DNA of 64,000 bases from Promethearchaeota archaeon (GCA_048938445.1 JBHLME010000002.1:16092-80091); one strand, 5' to 3'. Shown: positions 8,185-13,624, numbered from the stretch's first letter. Notes: generated from the letters alone by a model not told the origin. Numbers and translations: made by a program.

Positions 8185-8640
8185 TTAGCTTCTATCTATA
8201 GATAGATATTTTTTTTGTCTTAAAAAGATTACACCAATTTTCGCATTTCTTGCTTTTTTACGTAAATCTTGATCATTAGATGCCAAAAATATATTCGATC
8301 TTTCTTCTTTAAGTTCAGTAGCCTTACGTAATAAAAACTCATCTGTAGTTTCTATTTGATCCTTTATAGAATCATCAATTTCAATATTATATTGATTTTT
8401 ATTTTTATCAAGATAGATAAGTCCTGACTCTAATTGTTTATAAAATTTAGTAGCTTTTGGTTCTCTCTCTTTTTTTGCTTCTAATTCATCAAAGATTTGT
8501 CTATACACAATAAATTTTGTTCTGCCTTCCAAACGTGAATTAATATTCTCAAGGTAGTTAATTTTGAATTGGAAAGGAAGAAAAATAAAATTAGAATCTA
8601 TTATAACAAGGTTTTCATAATGAATATTTTTAGGGCTCAA
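8185..8640 (-). CDS. PIN-domain ribonuclease, Fcf1/Utp24-like
   Basis: IIDSNF, IFDELE, TDEFLL, LASNDQDLRKKAR, GVIFLRQKKYL; TTG start overlaps the Rab stop. Confidence 0.8.
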   Translation of the reverse strand: MSPKNIHYENLVIIDSNFIFLPFQFKINYLENINSRLEGRTKFIVYRQIFDELEAKKEREPKATKFYKQLESGLIYLDKNKNQYNIEIDDSIKDQIETTDEFLLRKATELKEERSNIFLASNDQDLRKKARNAKIGVIFLRQKKYLSIDRS

Positions 8641-9158
8641 AAAACTTGTCGCTCTAATATTTTTTTAGTTAATTTTTCAAAAGCAAAGTTAACGTTTTCA
8701 CCAGATTTACTTGAAATTTTTATAAAATCAAATAAATTAAAAGCTTCTTGAAAAGATTGAGCATAATCATCATCAACCATTATTTCTTCTGTTAAATCTA
8801 ACTTTGTTCCAACAAATAACACTGGAAGATCAGGATCACCCTTCCGAACTATATTTATCCATTGCTCTAAATTATCTAACGTTATTGGACGAGTGAGATC
8901 AAACATTAAAAGAGCACCTTTAGCCCCCAAAACGTAGCTTTCAAGGAGGAATCTAAACCGCTCTTGACCACCAAAATCCCAAAGTTGTAGGGTTGCGGCA
9001 TTTCCATCCACTTCAGTTTCTTTTAAAAAAAACTCCACTCCAATTGTCATCTTTGTTTCTGCACTGAATTTGCCTTCAACATATCTATGCAGAAGCGTGG
9101 TTTTTCCAACGCCACCTTCCCCCGCTGTTAGAATCTTCAGTATGAACTTTTTCGGCAT
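8637..9158 (-). CDS. Rab-like small GTPase
   Basis: GEGGVGKT, TIGVEF, LQLWDFGGQERFR, GTKLD, ISSK. Confidence 0.93.
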   Translation of the reverse strand: MPKKFILKILTAGEGGVGKTTLLHRYVEGKFSAETKMTIGVEFFLKETEVDGNAATLQLWDFGGQERFRFLLESYVLGAKGALLMFDLTRPITLDNLEQWINIVRKGDPDLPVLFVGTKLDLTEEIMVDDDYAQSFQEAFNLFDFIKISSKSGENVNFAFEKLTKKILERQVF

Positions 9159-9897: not shown

Positions 9898-10434
9898 TTA
9901 CTCCGCTTTTTTTCTCTGATTAATCCTATTATGCTTTATTAGAGTTTCTCTAATCGATTTAATTTCTGCTCGTGTTTCTATATCAAAATCTTTTAAACCC
10001 TCAAGAATCTCTTTTTCATTTGAACCCATACTATAGAGTTCATTAAATTTTACTATTACCTCTTTATGATAGTAAATGTAATGTCTTTCTAGAAAAATAA
10101 TCAACCATTCTTTATTTGATTGGTACTGTGTTAAATCATACATTTTTTCTTGAATTTTTTTTAATGGCTCCTTTAATTTTCTGGCAACCATTCTATCGTC
10201 AATTTTATAATGACTTTTTAAAGTTTTATTTAATTTTTTTGTAAAAAAGAGTGAATTAATATATGAAACCAAAAATGAAAATGCCAATAATAAAATCGTA
10301 ATAACACATATCCAAATCGTTGCGACAGGATTAACATTTATGAAAAGTAGTGCTATTAACGCTATGGTTAAAAAGATTATTGTAATTATATGTTGTCTAA
10401 ATTTTTTAATGAGTATTATGTATTTTTTTGGCAT
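9898..10434 (-). CDS. Hypothetical protein with two N-terminal TM helices
   Basis: 178-aa ORF; two hydrophobic segments followed by a basic soluble domain. Confidence 0.6.
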   Translation of the reverse strand: MPKKYIILIKKFRQHIITIIFLTIALIALLFINVNPVATIWICVITILLLAFSFLVSYINSLFFTKKLNKTLKSHYKIDDRMVARKLKEPLKKIQEKMYDLTQYQSNKEWLIIFLERHYIYYHKEVIVKFNELYSMGSNEKEILEGLKDFDIETRAEIKSIRETLIKHNRINQRKKAE

Positions 10435-10520
10435 TTAATTAATCAAGTCCATTATATTTTTTTATGATTAAATGATATTAATTATTAAATAAATAAAAAT
10501 TATTAGATAAGTAAAGTTAA

Positions 10521-10716
10521 TGGTATGCGACCATCTAGCTGCACTATCTATTCTGAGTTCGGATGTTATCAGGTAGATCCTAGCTTACCATGACCGTAAA
10601 CGTATTTACAGTTTGTCATTTCCCACTGATCGCAACAGCAGTACTATTGACAACGTAAGCAAGTTTAACTTCCAGAGATATGGCGATATGCCACAGCATC
10701 ATGGTCATTAATACCA
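10521..10716 (-). other. Pre-5S processing stem with a bulge-helix-bulge-type motif
   Basis: Leader/trailer pairings UGGUAU/AUACCA, GACCAU/AUGGUC, GCUGU/GCAGC, UAUCU/AGAUA, then AAU bulge, 4-bp CUGG/UCAG helix and AAG bulge. Confidence 0.8.
10551..10669 (-). rRNA. rrf: 5S rRNA, circularly permuted gene (3' half 10669-10605, UACG linker 10604-10601, 5' half 10600-10551)
   Basis: Minus strand reads GUUAAACUUGCUUACGUUGUCAAUAGUACUGCUGUUGCGAUCAGUGGGAAAUGACAAACUGUAAA-UACG-UUUACGGUCAUGGUAAGCUAGGAUCUACCUGAUAACAUCCGAACUCAGAA. All five 5S helices pair, with loop C CCGAAC and loop E AGUA/GAA; length 119 nt. Confidence 0.9.
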
Positions 10717-10879
10717 ATTCAAATCCGTTCATAAGATCGGTAATTTGAAATTCGAATTCCTACTTATGTGGATAAATTATAATAACTCTAATTATTTTTA
10801 ATAATTAAATTTTATTATATTTATTCGTCTCGTGAAGTAAACCGTTAAATTTAAATAATATTCAAGTGAATCATTAAGA

Positions 10880-11434
10880 ATGATCTTTCAGATATTGCTA
10901 CGTAATGTACCAGACTTTCAATATATAATCAATGCTATAATTGCAATACTAGGAAGATCATTAGATATAATTAGCACGAGATATGTTTCAAAAGAATTAA
11001 AATTAGAAACAAATAAATTTGCAAGACGTCTTGGATGGCCAGGAGCAATTTTGATTCAGATACCTTTAATCATATTAGGATCACTTGATTTTTATTTAGC
11101 CTTGTTTTTATTCGTTTGGAGTTTCTATCTTTTTGCCAATAACTTAGAGGGAAGTTGGTATGTAAAACAAGTGGGAGAAGAGCAATATAAGAATGAATTG
11201 AAAGATCAATTAAATCAATCAAAAACACTAAAAATAATTTTAGGTGAAATTTCCTCTCTATTAACTTATACCATCTCAGGTATATTAATATTAATCTTTA
11301 TCTTTGTTTTTAATGATTTTATTGGTGTTGTTTTCATATGTAGTGCATTAATTTTTCAAGGAATAGTAGGAACGATTAGATCAATAAAATATCTCTTTGA
11401 ATTAAAAAAAGAAAAAACTTTAGAAGAAAATTAA
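10880..11434 (+). CDS. Hypothetical integral membrane protein
   Basis: 4-5 hydrophobic segments; LDIISTRY...LETN motif. Confidence 0.6.
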   Translation: MIFQILLRNVPDFQYIINAIIAILGRSLDIISTRYVSKELKLETNKFARRLGWPGAILIQIPLIILGSLDFYLALFLFVWSFYLFANNLEGSWYVKQVGEEQYKNELKDQLNQSKTLKIILGEISSLLTYTISGILILIFIFVFNDFIGVVFICSALIFQGIVGTIRSIKYLFELKKEKTLEEN

Positions 11435-11449
11435 TAAAAAAATAAAAGA

Positions 11450-13624
11450 TCATTCTTTTAATCTTTTCAAATTACTAGAATGTTGATTGATACCTCTAAT
11501 AACTATCACTATAGAAAGACCTGTTATAAATGATATAAGAATAGTACCGCCTATCAAGACAATGTAAGTCGAAGGAATAGGGATGAGGAATTCAAATGTC
11601 TGCGAATAAAATTGCGTGTTGTTGGCATAATCTCTAGTGATGATTGTAAATTCATAGAAGCCCGGCATCATTTTATTCAATAAGACTTGCAGCAAGGTGT
11701 TGTTTTCATACAATGTATTTCTTGATATATCATAGGTGTAGGTTCCACTTATTTTATCTTGAATTAAAACAATGGCACTTTCAATTCCCGAGCGGTTATC
11801 TGAGGCAAAAATATCGAAACAAATGTTGTCTAAAGTCGTGGGATTAATTTTATCACAAAACACGCTTGAAATAACGGGCTTGATATTGTCTTCTTTGGTC
11901 GTGAAGTTAAAATGGGAAGGAATTAAATTATGACCTGTAATCGTCACGTTATATTTTTCATTGGCGTTCGGATAGACGCGAAATTTTGCTATGCCATTTA
12001 TATCCGCGTATACAGTGTTATATTTCCCATCTTCCGTCGTTAGATGGATTCTCGCATGAGGAACTATATTGTTTCGTGTATCTCTGATGGTTATTGAGAC
12101 TAACTGACCTTCATAAATGTCCCCTGTAAATGGATTTGAAGCATTTACGGGTTTGTTCGTGTAGATGTCAACTTCGGGATCACCTAAAAGGCAATAGGTC
12201 AAGACATTCTTTCTTTGATATCCTAAACTCATCGATGATATTGTCTGGGCAAAGATATCGGAATTTACGTAATCTAGTTTGGAATCATACAGGGTTTTAC
12301 CTTGTTGGTAAATTTTATCTTCAAAAAATTTCTCCCAGAATAATTTCGCATTAGCTCTATTTAAAAATTCGAAATCAAAATCATCTACAATATACCATGT
12401 AACGCGTAATGCCCCAATATAACCAATAGCACCAGAGTTAGTCGCTTTGATTAATATTTCTCCTATGTTCTGATCAGTATCATCATAAGCTGAAGTTGTA
12501 CAAGCATCAGCATAGATCAATGAAGGCATATCAGCATTAGAACTAGATGATGCTTGAGTATCTGTGTATATACTAAAACCTACACCACGGCTACTATATA
12601 ATCCAGTATCACCATGACCCGCAAACATGATCGTTGAGTAACCACTGTTAAATTCATTGTTAAATTCAGAAGCATCACTAATTTCGTCTACAGTATCTGA
12701 TGGATCTACTGAAGTATTCACTGAAAAATAAGTTGATCTATATAAATGAGTAAAATTCATTTCAGGTTCGACATAATTTTTCCAGATATATTCTGTCAAA
12801 CGAGCCTCATCTTCACCATCGGGACTTGCTTCAATAACAGTATCTGAGATTACTCCTGCTAATAACATGTTATTCATCCAATCATCAATATATGGATCTG
12901 ACTCGTATTTTATGGTCTTATTGACCATCTGTTGTAATTCGATATAATTGCTAGCTGGCAAGCGTCCAACATACACTTCAGGGATCCAATTAATTTCATC
13001 TATTCCAAATGCATTATATATTGGTGATTCACCAAAATTATTGTCATTATCATCATCCCACGTGCCCGTCAAGTCGGCATAATAAAAATCCGTAGGTTTG
13101 TAAACCCTATCACCATGTTCTGGGTGAGGTCCGTTAGGAGCATCGTCAACATCTGGATTATAAACATATCTTATTGGAATGAGACTATTTTCTGCATCTC
13201 CCACTAATAAGACCCATCGAATCCCTTCTTTTTCATAGTATTCCTTTATCATGTTTCGAATTCGTTCTGGATCGTCTCTCCCAGGGTATGATGAGAAATT
13301 GCTCAATATGATGGTCTTAACTCCTTTTTGGTTCTTCCAGTCCCGTAATGGAATGGTTGCATTGATAAAATTCTCATCATCGGGAGTTATGATTATCATT
13401 TCAACATCATGGTCATACCAAGTTTCATTTAAATCAGTAAAATTAAATTCAGGTATTAATGACGGATTTAAATCAGAAATGTAACCTGATGTTTTTAATA
13501 TTTCAGAATTATTAAAGTTCTTAAAAGTTATTGCGTTAAGGTTTATGATTAAAATATAAGTTGGGAAAACAAGGAAAATAATAAATGAGAGATATATAAT
13601 TCTTTTTAAGAGAAGCGACTTCAT
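11450..13624 (-). CDS. Peptidase C25 (gingipain-like) cysteine protease, membrane anchored
   Basis: WKNQKG, WVLLVGD, TDFYYADL, EVYVGRLP, FAGHG (His), ADAC (Cys), LLGDP; N-terminal signal/TM and C-terminal TM. Confidence 0.9.
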   Translation of the reverse strand: MKSLLLKRIIYLSFIIFLVFPTYILIINLNAITFKNFNNSEILKTSGYISDLNPSLIPEFNFTDLNETWYDHDVEMIIITPDDENFINATIPLRDWKNQKGVKTIILSNFSSYPGRDDPERIRNMIKEYYEKEGIRWVLLVGDAENSLIPIRYVYNPDVDDAPNGPHPEHGDRVYKPTDFYYADLTGTWDDDNDNNFGESPIYNAFGIDEINWIPEVYVGRLPASNYIELQQMVNKTIKYESDPYIDDWMNNMLLAGVISDTVIEASPDGEDEARLTEYIWKNYVEPEMNFTHLYRSTYFSVNTSVDPSDTVDEISDASEFNNEFNSGYSTIMFAGHGDTGLYSSRGVGFSIYTDTQASSSSNADMPSLIYADACTTSAYDDTDQNIGEILIKATNSGAIGYIGALRVTWYIVDDFDFEFLNRANAKLFWEKFFEDKIYQQGKTLYDSKLDYVNSDIFAQTISSMSLGYQRKNVLTYCLLGDPEVDIYTNKPVNASNPFTGDIYEGQLVSITIRDTRNNIVPHARIHLTTEDGKYNTVYADINGIAKFRVYPNANEKYNVTITGHNLIPSHFNFTTKEDNIKPVISSVFCDKINPTTLDNICFDIFASDNRSGIESAIVLIQDKISGTYTYDISRNTLYENNTLLQVLLNKMMPGFYEFTIITRDYANNTQFYSQTFEFLIPIPSTYIVLIGGTILISFITGLSIVIVIRGINQHSSNLKRLKE

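What the first reader, a model, noticed from the sequence alone, without database searches (positions are those of the whole stretch)
10521..10716. Flanks form a BHB-type splicing substrate whose cut sites exactly regenerate the 5S junction
Seen in sequence: leader and trailer are complementary. The pairs are UGGUAU(10716-10711)/AUACCA(10526-10521), GACCAU/AUGGUC, GCUGU/GCAGC and UAUCU(10680-10676)/AGAUA(10549-10545). These are followed by a 3-nt bulge AAU, a 4-bp helix CUGG(10675-10672)/UCAG(10556-10553) and AAG on the opposite strand. Each bulge lies 3' of the central helix, as in a bulge-helix-bulge motif; the inner flank is relaxed (BHL-like). Established knowledge: archaeal splicing endonuclease EndA cuts after the second bulge nucleotide and RtcB ligates, as for tRNA introns and circular pre-16S/23S. 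Applying that rule gives UCAGAA|U and CUGGAA|G. Ligation then yields ...CCGAACUCAGAA-GUUAAAC..., the canonical 5S sequence with no base gained or lost. Inference: the 5S rRNA matures by tRNA-splicing-type circularization. The unique, non-5S paired flanks also argue against an assembly artefact.
Basis: partly seen in the sequence, partly recalled or inferred. Interest (0 to 1): 0.93.

Follow-up and report, generated by a model that had tools for sequence, protein, structure and literature searches.

The report
Permuted 5S rRNA gene, splice-circularised
This archaeon's only 5S ribosomal RNA gene is written back-to-front, and its flanks form the signal that the tRNA-splicing enzymes would cut and rejoin to restore a normal 5S sequence; the same layout occurs in most Asgard archaeal genomes I sampled.

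Summary
Confirmed and extended. On the minus strand, 10669-10551 holds a circularly permuted 5S rRNA gene. The 3' half comes first, helix I is capped by a UACG loop, and the 5' half comes last.

- **Cutting rule:** cutting after the second bulge base gives a 119-nt RNA whose joined ends read as canonical 5S. It aligns end to end with canonical 5S of a sister family.
- **Conservation:** the motif was in register in 76 of 76 related loci. Covariation beat all controls (0 of 500 shuffles).
- **Break points and inserts:** they sit at four sites in different lineages. Intron-like 30-nt inserts obey the same cutting rule.
- **Enzymes:** the genome has EndA (a catalytic and a non-catalytic paralogue) and RtcB.
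- **DNA:** it holds no canonical 5S gene and no copy of the joined junction.
- **RNA:** one metatranscriptome contig from a relative forms a closed 121-nt cycle through both the helix-I loop and the canonical junction.
- **Spread:** a model of the permuted form hits 97 of 151 Asgard genomes strongly, in 18 of 23 families.

Ten literature searches found no report of this. Whether the mature RNA stays circular is open.

The parts
10732..10743 (-). Possible archaeal promoter element (A/T-rich box, UUUCAAAUUA-like) about 20-25 nt upstream of the first paired leader base
   Evidence: Read. The same box is seen upstream in the same-genus locus L003. This is inference only; no archaeal promoter scan was run.
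10693..10716 (-). Leader, distal stem 5' strands (10716-10711, 10706-10701, 10697-10693)
   Evidence: Pairings read and kept in the minimum-energy fold. Contiguous distal leader/trailer stems of 7-18 bp occur in 76 of 76 related loci (no shuffle control).
10682..10692 (-). Small leader hairpin (GGC / AUAUC loop / GCC) between the distal stem and the BHB helix
   Evidence: Present in the fold. A hairpin at this place is predicted in 61 of 76 related loci, and its stem sequence varies among the loci printed. Its function is unknown.
10676..10680 (-). Outer BHB helix, 5' strand (UAUCU)
   Evidence: Pairs with 10549-10545. The three proximal pairs are paired in 24, 25 and 25 of 25 distinct sequences, with 4-5 pair types each.
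10672..10675 (-). Central 4-bp BHB helix, leader strand (CUGG). It imitates the native 5' strand of 5S helix III.
   Evidence: Pairs with 10556-10553. Paired 4 of 4 in 76 of 76 loci. Column 10/168 reads C-G in 15 and U-A in 10 sequences.
10669..10671 (-). 5' bulge AAG; predicted cut between 10670 and 10669
   Evidence: Geometry read. The cut position is inferred from the EndA rule and from the canonical junction it restores.
10551..10669 (-). Excised 119-nt 5S rRNA in permuted order. The 3' part is 10669-10605, the helix-I closing loop UACG is 10604-10601, and the 5' part is 10600-10551.
   Evidence: Two Rfam half-matches. Once rotated, it aligns end to end with canonical 5S of family f2 (65-70 of 116-117 identical) and folds into the three-way 5S shape. 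The permuted-5S model R1 scores it 116 bits over exactly these coordinates; the window is in the seed of that model.
10593..10612 (-). Helix I closed into a hairpin (10612-10605 with 10600-10593, loop 10604-10601)
   Evidence: All helix-I pairs are paired in 25 of 25 sequences, with compensatory changes. The cap is a tetraloop in 75 of 76 loci, UUCG in 40.
10553..10556 (-). Central BHB helix, 3' strand (UCAG). It is also the 3' strand of native 5S helix III.
10550..10552 (-). 3' bulge AAU; predicted cut between 10551 and 10550
   Evidence: the cut is inferred as above
10521..10549 (-). Trailer: outer helix 3' strand (10549-10545) and distal stem 3' strands (10542-10538, 10534-10529, 10526-10521)
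10495..10499 (-). Run of five U after the trailer, a possible archaeal terminator
   Evidence: Read; inference only

Best explanation
The locus is the genome's single 5S rRNA gene, encoded in circularly permuted order: 3' part, a 4-nt loop capping helix I, then the 5' part.

Proposed pathway:
1. The primary transcript (about 10716 to about 10500, minus strand) folds so that leader and trailer pair.
2. A leader tetramer (CUGG) takes the place of the native 5' strand of helix III. This makes a bulge-helix-bulge motif whose 3' strand is the last part of the 5S sequence.
3. The splicing endonuclease EndA cuts two bases 3' of the 4-bp helix on each strand (after 10670 and after 10551).
4. RtcB joins the 2',3'-cyclic phosphate and 5'-OH ends of the excised 119-nt piece.
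5. The native helix III then forms, and the RNA carries the canonical ...UCAGAA-GUUAAAC... junction.

The product is a covalently closed 5S rRNA. I favour, at about 55:45, that it stays circular in the ribosome rather than being reopened in the helix-I loop.

Shown here by computation:
- the gene order
- conservation and covariation of the motif
- the exact restoration of the junction
- presence of the enzymes
- absence of the junction from the DNA
- one circular RNA contig from a relative

Inferred: the cleavage, the ligation, the order of folding and the final topology.
For: **Only 5S in the genome.** RF00001 finds no other candidate in the 4.63-Mb assembly, which is 96.5% complete. BLAST finds one copy.

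**The product is a 5S rRNA.** Rotated, it aligns end to end with canonical 5S of family f2 and folds as 5S.

**The motif is conserved.**
- The central helix is 4 of 4 in 76 of 76 loci. The outer helix has 3 bp or more in 72 of 76. Predicted products are 119-123 nt, or 150-153 nt with inserts.
- There are 27 outer-helix sequence types. A leader pairs with its own trailer over 3 bp or more in 24 of 27 types. Cross-pairing reaches that in 36% of cases.
- The count of structure pairs: 94.1% paired, 10 pairs with changes on both sides, 0 of 500 shuffles as high, slid controls 22-38%.

**The same cutting rule restores canonical 5S at other break sites.**
- Class B, start of loop C: 24 loci.
- Loop B, in family f3.
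- 30-nt inserts in loop C: 20 loci, 19 with the central helix 4 of 4.
- 30-nt inserts in loop D: 3 loci.

**The enzymes are present.**
- EndA paralogue 1 best matches the chains 3p1z_B and 3ajv_B, both named tRNA-splicing endonuclease (E = 1.8e-35). Their organism (Aeropyrum pernix) and their catalytic-subunit role are recalled. Paralogue 1 has a Lys at the position aligned to residue 44 of 3p1z_B. PMC5829648 names K44 of the A. pernix enzyme as the specific-loop lysine (passages). That 3p1z_B carries that enzyme's numbering is my assumption.
- Paralogue 2 has Ser where the aligned Methanocaldococcus enzyme has His.
- RtcB scores 564 bits.

**DNA and RNA.**
- None of the 11 junction 20-mers occurs in the assembly; control 20-mers occur once each.
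- One 151-nt contig of an RNA library covers 10598-10672, then 33 letters of a relative's 5' half, then 10585-10627. It therefore runs through the helix-I loop twice and the canonical junction once. Its length equals 121 + 30, as expected for a closed cycle at k = 31.

**Helix-I cap.** It is a tetraloop in 75 of 76 loci, and of the UNCG type in 47. That fits a structure that is kept in the mature RNA.
Against: - No RNA from this organism was seen. The single informative contig comes from a relative (4 and 1 differing letters in the two laid pieces), has depth 3.7 and comes from one run. Its source DNA was not found. The k = 31 overlap is my reading of the coordinates, not a tool statement.
- The second contig with a canonical junction is uninformative. 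That stretch is contiguous in the DNA of class B genes.
- The minimum-energy fold prefers native helix III over the leader pairing, so BHB formation needs kinetic or protein help.
- The inner side of the motif has no covarying helix. The substrate is relaxed, and cleavage of such a motif by this EndA is untested.
- One relative (L009) has a 31-nt hairpin inserted in the helix-I loop, with no BHB found. That would be harmless if this loop were removed, which favours the rival that reopens the circle.
- Circular 5S forms made from ordinary genes are reported in other archaea and read as possible degradation products (PMC12558985 passages). A circle is therefore not by itself proof of a maturation pathway.
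Confidence: 0.85

Rival explanations
1. The pathway is the same up to the circle, but the circle is only an intermediate. An unknown nuclease then opens or trims the helix-I loop (10604-10601), giving a linear 5S with ordinary ends. This would resemble permuted tRNA genes, where the circular intermediate is opened at the joining sequence.
For: - Permuted tRNA genes work this way (Soma 2007, seen only as a reference in the passages; otherwise recalled).
- Pre-16S and pre-23S circles are usually described as being re-linearised (PMC12918454 passages).
- L009 tolerates a 31-nt insert in this loop.
Against: - The cap is a 4-nt loop in 75 of 76 loci, mostly UUCG or UACG. That is selection for a stable structure, not for a spacer.
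- No processing signal is apparent.
- The RNA contig contains the intact loop, although an intermediate could also supply it.
Confidence: 0.35
2. The RNA is cut out but never ligated. The ribosome would use a linear permuted 5S with its ends in helix III and a capped helix I. Brown-algal mitochondrial 5S rRNA is permuted in this sense, in the final product as well as in the gene.
For: Permuted 5S molecules that stay permuted exist in stramenopile mitochondria (PMC4267664 passages).
Against: - The cut sites restore the canonical sequence to the base at four different break sites and at the intron-like inserts. That precision would not be needed without ligation.
- The break point moves between close relatives, even within one genus.
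- The RNA contig crosses the junction.
- EndA products are the natural substrates of RtcB, which is present.
Confidence: 0.07
3. The locus is an assembly chimera or a decayed 5S pseudogene, and the real 5S gene is simply missing from the bins.
For: The genome is a 256-contig bin with 8% contamination. rRNA genes are often left unassembled.
Against: - The same arrangement, with unique flanks, occurs in 78 distinct loci.
- It occurs in single-contig genomes such as G159, G169, G179, G182, G192 and G211.
- Covariation preserves both the 5S helices and the flanks.
- Among the 105 genomes of family f1 searched, the only canonical 5S hits over cut-off are two. Both lie next to bacterial 23S rRNA and so look like contaminants.
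Confidence: 0.01

Closest known systems
Circularly permuted tRNA genes (Cyanidioschyzon merolae; a few archaea), expressed through a circular RNA intermediate
   Same: The 3' half is encoded upstream of the 5' half. Leader and trailer form a BHB motif. The splicing endonuclease and a ligase restore the normal order through a circle. Such genes are linked to endonucleases of broad specificity (PMC5829648 passages).
   Different: - The RNA here is 5S rRNA, not tRNA.
- The two natural ends are joined by only a 4-nt tetraloop, not by a spacer that RNase P and tRNase Z remove. The circle may therefore be the final product.
- The trait spans most of a phylum, not a few genes.
[quoted passage not shown]
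   Same: A BHB motif forms from sequence on both sides of an rRNA. The rRNA is excised and circularised. In some lineages a circular or permuted form is reported in the ribosome (PMC12918454 and PMC7758197 passages).
   Different: - Those genes are collinear with the rRNA. Here the gene itself is permuted, and ligation is needed to create an internal 5S sequence.
- One strand of the BHB central helix lies inside the mature RNA.
- PMC12918454 states that the pathway applies to 16S and 23S 'but not 5S rRNAs'.
Permuted mitochondrial 5S rRNA of brown algae (the mtPerm-5S model)
   Same: A 5S rRNA whose helix I is replaced by a hairpin and whose ends lie elsewhere (PMC4267664 passages).
   Different: - It is organellar.
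- The ends lie at the junction of two domains.
- The molecule stays permuted, with no BHB and no ligation.
BHB introns of archaeal tRNA and rRNA genes, including relaxed (HBh', BHL) forms
   Same: A 4-bp helix with 3-nt bulges, cut after the second bulge base. The 30-nt inserts in loops C and D of related 5S genes have this form.
   Different: In the window the excised piece is the functional RNA and the flanks are discarded. My ten searches turned up no report of an intron in 5S rRNA. No search was aimed at that question. Earlier notes of this scan also found none.

Membership tests
5S rRNA (Rfam RF00001) | Reaches the curated gathering score (38 bits) as one collinear match | tested here: not met
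   There are two half-matches of 19.3 and 15.9 bits in swapped order and nothing at gathering. The reason is the permutation, not decay.
5S rRNA (Rfam RF00001) | Three-way junction with helices I-V and conserved loop sequences once the two parts are put in normal order | tested here: met
   The rotated product aligns end to end with four canonical 5S rRNAs (65-70 of 116-117 identical, 5 gap columns). It folds into the three-way shape both as a circle and as a line. Helix I covaries. The rotated sequence could not be given to Infernal.
BHB substrate of archaeal splicing endonuclease (EndA) | 4-bp central helix flanked by two 3-nt bulges on opposite strands, each 3' of its helix strand | tested here: met
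   In register in 76 of 76 loci; 100% of cells paired.
BHB substrate of archaeal splicing endonuclease (EndA) | Helices on both outer sides of the bulges (strict hBHBh') | tested here: inconclusive
   The outer helix is present and covaries. The inner side has only a possible invariant 3-bp GUU/AAC pairing. The motif is therefore relaxed (hBH or BHL-like).
BHB substrate of archaeal splicing endonuclease (EndA) | Actual cleavage after the second bulge base, leaving 2',3'-cyclic phosphate and 5'-OH ends | not testable with these tools
   Only indirect support: the rule restores canonical 5S at every site examined.
BHB substrate of archaeal splicing endonuclease (EndA) | The host encodes an EndA able to cut relaxed motifs, and an RtcB ligase | tested here: met
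   There are two PF01974 proteins. Paralogue 1 has a Lys aligned to residue 44 of 3p1z_B, taken to be the specific-loop Lys. Paralogue 2 has Ser where the aligned Methanocaldococcus enzyme has His. RtcB scores 564 bits. The heterotetramer itself is inferred.
Circularly permuted RNA genes matured through a circular RNA | The 3' part lies upstream of the 5' part in the DNA, and the normal junction is absent from the DNA | tested here: met
   None of the 11 junction 20-mers occurs in the assembly.
Circularly permuted RNA genes matured through a circular RNA | An RNA molecule that carries the restored junction | tested here: inconclusive
   One contig from one RNA run, from a relative and not this organism, forms a closed 121-nt cycle.

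The most novel reading that the evidence does not exclude
Most Asgard archaea build their ribosomes with a covalently closed circular 5S rRNA. They make it from a permuted gene using the tRNA-splicing endonuclease and RtcB. The permutation would be ancient in the phylum, its break point would migrate through intron-like intermediates, and a few lineages would have reverted to a collinear gene.
Probability: 0.4. Interest if true: 0.93.

Novelty: new variant of a known kind. Interest (0 to 1): 0.88.

Why it matters
**Annotation.** 5S rRNA is treated as easy to identify in archaeal genomes (PMC4267664 abstract). Here the standard model fails at 19 bits. These genomes would be scored as lacking 5S, which is one of the criteria for high-quality genome bins (recalled). 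A permuted-5S model finds the gene in 97 of 151 sampled Asgard genomes.

**Mechanism.** It would add 5S rRNA to the substrates of the EndA/RtcB pathway. A 2026 paper says that pathway does not apply to 5S. It also raises the prospect of a circular 5S rRNA inside a ribosome.

**Evolution.** Four break sites and intron-like inserts at two further sites lie in different lineages (class B' shares the loop C site of class B). Some differ within one genus. This gives a natural series for testing the idea that permuted genes and BHB introns convert into one another. That it occurs in the closest archaeal relatives of eukaryotes adds interest.

**Testability.** Everything can be tested directly with RT-PCR, RNase R treatment and in-vitro cleavage.

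Tried and rejected
- **Rfam at gathering thresholds:** no hit in the window. ARAGORN found no tRNA.
- **Folding z-score:** too weak on its own.
- **Source DNA of the informative RNA contig:** not found.
  - The 33 letters between its two laid pieces match none of 131 loci at up to 3 mismatches.
  - They match none of 154 genomes of the order at up to 3 mismatches.
  - They have no exact match in the metagenome contigs.
- **Second RNA contig (149 nt, depth 18.9):** it also shows a canonical junction. Its 30 loose letters match the DNA of a class B gene (G043, 3 mismatches). In that class the stretch is contiguous, so I dropped it as evidence.
- **Sequencing runs:** only one RNA run was offered, and it held 0.12 of the sampled words. 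It says nothing about habitat or about expression of this organism.
- **Generic BHB scan inside the 150-nt products:** it gave many chance hits. I kept only those that restore canonical sequence.
- **31-nt insert in the helix-I loop of L009:** no BHB was found.
- **First alignment with long flanks (A1):** it was out of register in the trailers and was not used for counts. I realigned with 14-nt flanks (A2, A3).
- **Class B alignment (A3):** it has little variation in the outer helix (mostly GCG/CGC), so I ran no covariation count on it.
- **Two f1 genomes with canonical 5S over cut-off:** both hits lie beside bacterial 23S rRNA and look like contaminants.
- **Rows dropped:** of 98 pattern matches in the loci, 78 were distinct. 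L060 (truncated) and L083 (short flank) were dropped before the 76-locus counts.
- **Not used:** structure prediction, complex prediction and protein-database searches were not needed. Supplementary files of papers were closed and not seen; they might list 5S annotations for Asgard genomes.

Full report
**What is in the sequence**

I read the window's minus strand. There are three distal stem segments: 10716-10711 with 10526-10521, 10706-10701 with 10534-10529, and 10697-10693 with 10542-10538. Inside them lie a 5-bp helix (10680-10676 with 10549-10545) and a 4-bp helix (CUGG 10675-10672 with UCAG 10556-10553). The bulges are AAG (10671-10669) and AAU (10552-10550), each 3' of its strand of the 4-bp helix.

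Between the bulges lies 5S rRNA sequence in swapped order. Rfam finds nothing in the window at its curated thresholds. In permissive mode it gives two adjacent half-matches: the 5' half of the model at 10601-10515 (19.3 bits) and the 3' half at 10712-10603 (15.9 bits). Helix I is closed into a hairpin (10612-10605 with 10600-10593) capped by UACG (10604-10601).

**Is the product a 5S rRNA?**

Cutting after the second base of each bulge releases 10669-10551, which is 119 nt. In a script I rotated this piece so that it opens at the helix-I loop.
- The rotated piece aligns end to end with four canonical 5S rRNAs of a sister family. Identity is 65-70 of 116-117 positions, with 5 gap columns.
- It folds into the usual three-way junction, both as a circle (-19.9 kcal/mol) and as a line (-25.5 kcal/mol).
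- The joined ends read ...UCAGAA-GUUAAAC..., which matches the Rfam consensus printed.

The junction falls in the two-adenine internal loop of helix III.

This is the only 5S candidate in the 4.63-Mb, 96.5%-complete assembly. None of the 11 possible 20-mers across the predicted joint occurs in the assembly. Control 20-mers from inside the gene occur exactly once each.

**Is the flanking motif more than chance?**

Energy alone does not say so. The precursor folds with z = -1.72. The minimum-energy structure pairs UCAG with its native partner in helix III, not with the leader. The BHB conformer is only 1.5 kcal/mol less stable, and its pairs have probabilities of 0.16-0.35.

The decisive evidence is comparative.
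- A DNA search found the same permuted arrangement in 20 of 24 other genomes of the family.
- A pattern scan of species-representative genomes found 73 stretches. Nearly all are titled Promethearchaeota or Promethearchaeia, a phylum and class of the kingdom Promethearchaeati. That this kingdom is the Asgard archaea is recalled.
- From these I obtained 78 distinct loci, of which 76 were analysable.

In all 76, the 4-bp helix is fully paired in register with the cut sites. In 72 the adjoining outer helix has at least 3 bp. The predicted products are 119-123 nt, or 150-153 nt where an insert is present. The outer helix comes in 27 sequence types. A leader pairs with its own trailer over 3 bp or more in 24 of 27 types, against 36% for mismatched leader-trailer combinations.

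I also ran a formal count on an alignment of 32 insert-free loci, 25 of them distinct (A2).
- 94.1% of cells pair, against 78.9% in shuffles. None of 500 shuffles reaches the observed value on any measure.
- Only 22-38% pair when partners are slid by 1-3 columns.
- The central helix is 100% paired, with C-G in 15 and U-A in 10 sequences at one position.
- The three proximal outer pairs are paired in 24, 25 and 25 of 25 sequences, with four or five pair types each.
- Helix I, closed by the loop, is also 100% paired, with compensatory changes.

**Break points differ, but the rule holds**

Fifty-two loci break where the window does, after the 3' strand of helix III. I call this class A. Twenty-four break at the start of loop C (class B, including one variant I call B'). 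There the leader again supplies a CYGG tetramer that pairs with the last CCRG of the gene. Cutting after the second bulge base again gives canonical sequence of canonical length.

Both classes occur within the window's own genus: the window and G004 are class A, and G005 is class B'. A genome of another family breaks in loop B (L039). A genome of another order breaks at the class A site, with a 7-bp outer helix (L132). Both give 121-nt products.

Twenty class A loci carry a 30-nt insert in loop C (31 nt in one). It has a BHB-type motif whose removal restores the canonical loop. The central helix is 4 of 4 in 19 of the 20, and the inner helix has 3 bp or more in 18. Three class B loci carry a 30-nt insert in loop D with a strict helix-bulge-helix-bulge-helix motif.

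One cutting rule thus explains four permutation sites and two intron-like sites. This is the strongest internal argument that the endonuclease acts here.

**The enzymes**

The genome encodes two proteins with the tRNA-intron endonuclease domains.
- **Paralogue 1.** Its best matches are the chains 3p1z_B and 3ajv_B, both named tRNA-splicing endonuclease (E = 1.8e-35). I recall that these are the catalytic subunit of the Aeropyrum pernix heterotetramer. The alignment shows a Lys at the position aligned to residue 44 of 3p1z_B. PMC5829648 names K44 of the A. pernix enzyme as the residue of the specific loop that gives broad specificity (passages). That 3p1z_B carries that enzyme's numbering is my assumption.
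- **Paralogue 2.** It most resembles the Methanocaldococcus enzyme, but has Ser where that enzyme has His in the aligned ...EH... motif. That this His is the catalytic one is recalled, so I read this paralogue as a structural subunit.
- **RtcB.** It is present at 564 bits.

[quoted passage not shown] It also states that the L1 loop is conserved in the TACK and Asgard groups. This fits a motif whose inner side is not closed by a covarying helix.

**RNA evidence**

One RNA run was offered and I laid it on the locus. One 151-nt contig (depth 3.7) covers 10598-10672. It then carries 33 letters that read as the 5' half of a related 5S ending just before the junction. It then covers 10585-10627.

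In RNA sense the contig runs through the helix-I loop, the 5' half, the canonical junction and the 3' half, and then the helix-I loop again. Its first and last 30 positions cover the same window bases. Its length equals 121 + 30, as a closed cycle would give in an assembly with 31-letter words. That last step is my inference.

The contig comes from a relative, not from this organism, and I could not find its source DNA. A chimera between a permuted and a collinear gene is unlikely, because the collinear 5S rRNAs of the sister family are only about 56-60% identical to this one.

A second contig with a canonical junction proved uninformative. That stretch is contiguous in class B genes.

**How far the trait reaches**

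I first searched with the standard 5S model.
- **Order and class.** Collinear 5S genes over cut-off appear in one family, f2: 12 of 14 genomes and 7 of 9. They appear in only 2 of the 105 genomes of the window's family searched. Both of those lie beside bacterial 23S rRNA and so look like contaminant contigs.
- **Phylum.** 47 of 151 genomes (85% complete or more) have a hit over cut-off. They are concentrated in five families (f2, f12, f15, f17, f27).

I then built a covariance model of the permuted form from 22 excised regions and searched the phylum again, with the same search settings, again 151 genomes.
- 113 genomes match. In 97 the match is full-length at 50 bits or more, spread over 18 of 23 families.
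- The 16 weak matches are 14 in f12, one in f2 and one in f15, which are collinear families.
- One genome (G226) barely passes the standard cut-off at the same locus as its permuted match.
- Several genomes with the permuted gene are single contigs.

I checked the flanks of representatives.
- 10-bp outer helices in the small-genome family f8 and in f26, an 8-bp helix in f13 read by eye (the scan did not list it; central helix 3 of 4), and a relaxed motif with a leader hairpin in f10.
- 19 representatives of 15 families. The central helix is 4 of 4 in 15, and the outer helix is 6-15 bp in 14.

Almost all of these break at the same internal loop of helix III.

**Most likely mechanism, and what remains open**

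The transcript folds with leader and trailer paired. The leader tetramer stands in for the native 5' strand of helix III. EndA cuts both bulges, RtcB closes the excised piece, and native helix III forms. These steps are inferred. The gene order, the covarying motif, the enzymes, the missing DNA junction and one circular RNA contig are shown.

The final topology is open.
- **For a mature circle.** The helix-I cap is a tetraloop in 75 of 76 loci: UUCG in 40, UACG in 5 and UCCG in 2.
- **For reopening.** One relative has a 31-nt hairpin inserted in that loop. Permuted tRNAs and pre-16S/23S circles set a precedent for reopening.

Break points sit beside intron-like inserts. This suggests that break points move through duplication of an intron-bearing gene, which would turn an intron into a break and the reverse. 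That is speculation.

**Comparison with what is known**

The closest systems are:
- permuted tRNA genes matured through circles
- permuted or circular mature 23S rRNA in some archaea (passages of PMC7758197 and PMC12918454)
- the permuted mitochondrial 5S of brown algae, which stays permuted and is not ligated (PMC4267664)

Minor circular forms of 5S made from ordinary genes are reported in Halobacterium and Sulfolobus and read as possible degradation products (PMC12558985 passages; PMC3326292 seen as a listing only).

All ten searches of the paper library are used. None turned up a permuted 5S gene in archaea or a BHB-dependent 5S pathway. PMC12918454 says circularisation applies to 16S and 23S 'but not 5S rRNAs'. 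Subscription journals and supplementary files were not searchable.

Earlier notes of this scan describe BHB mini-introns in 5S genes of DPANN archaea, but no permuted 5S.

**Verdict**

It is a new variant of a known kind: BHB-resolved permuted RNA genes. It now involves 5S rRNA and most sampled lineages of the Asgard archaea.

Noticed in passing
L006, L008, L010, L059, L067, L070, L080, L084, L086, L094, L098, L111, L113, L116, L118, L120, L122, L126, L127, L128 (coordinates): Each has a 30-nt insert in loop C of the permuted 5S gene (31 nt in one). The insert has a BHB-type motif whose removal restores canonical loop C. It leaves a 7-nt micro-exon between the intron's 3' site and the permutation's 3' cut.
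   Followed up: partly
L022:1475-1653, L042:1450-1627, L055:1450-1628: Each has a 30-nt insert in loop D of a class B permuted 5S gene, with a strict helix-bulge-helix-bulge-helix motif. Splicing restores the canonical loop.
   Followed up: partly
L009:1368-1614 (genome G010): A 31-nt G+C-rich hairpin with a UUCG loop is inserted in the helix-I closing loop. No BHB was found. It is either an expansion or a hint that this loop is removed.
   Followed up: partly
L007 (genome G005) compared with the window and L003 (genome G004): The break point of the permuted gene differs within one genus. It lies at the start of loop C in G005 and after helix III in the window and in G004.
   Followed up: partly
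L140, L141, L142 (family f12): These are collinear 5S genes that score below the Rfam cut-off. They carry an insert of about 30 nt just after the GUUAAA motif, possibly another intron site.
   Followed up: no
L047:1500-1625 (genome G031, family f4): A divergent collinear 5S (28.6 bits) with a possible BHB formed by its own flanks. This would mean circularisation without permutation.
   Followed up: no
L026 (genome G068) and L133 (genome G127): Two genome bins of the window's family hold contigs with bacterial 23S and 5S rRNA. One also carries group I introns. They look like contaminants.
   Followed up: yes
window 8637-9158 (-), 11450-13624 (-), 9898-10434 (-), 10880-11434 (+): Neighbouring genes are a Ras-family small GTPase, a peptidase C25 protein, and two small proteins with only weak Pfam hits (Reticulon-like, EI24/CysZ-like). 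The 5S gene stands alone, with no 16S, 23S or tRNA in the 64-kb window.
   Followed up: partly
window 10682-10692 (-), and the same place in relatives: A small hairpin in the leader lies between the distal stem and the BHB helix. It is predicted in 61 of 76 loci, and its stem sequence varies among the loci printed. Its role is unknown.
   Followed up: partly
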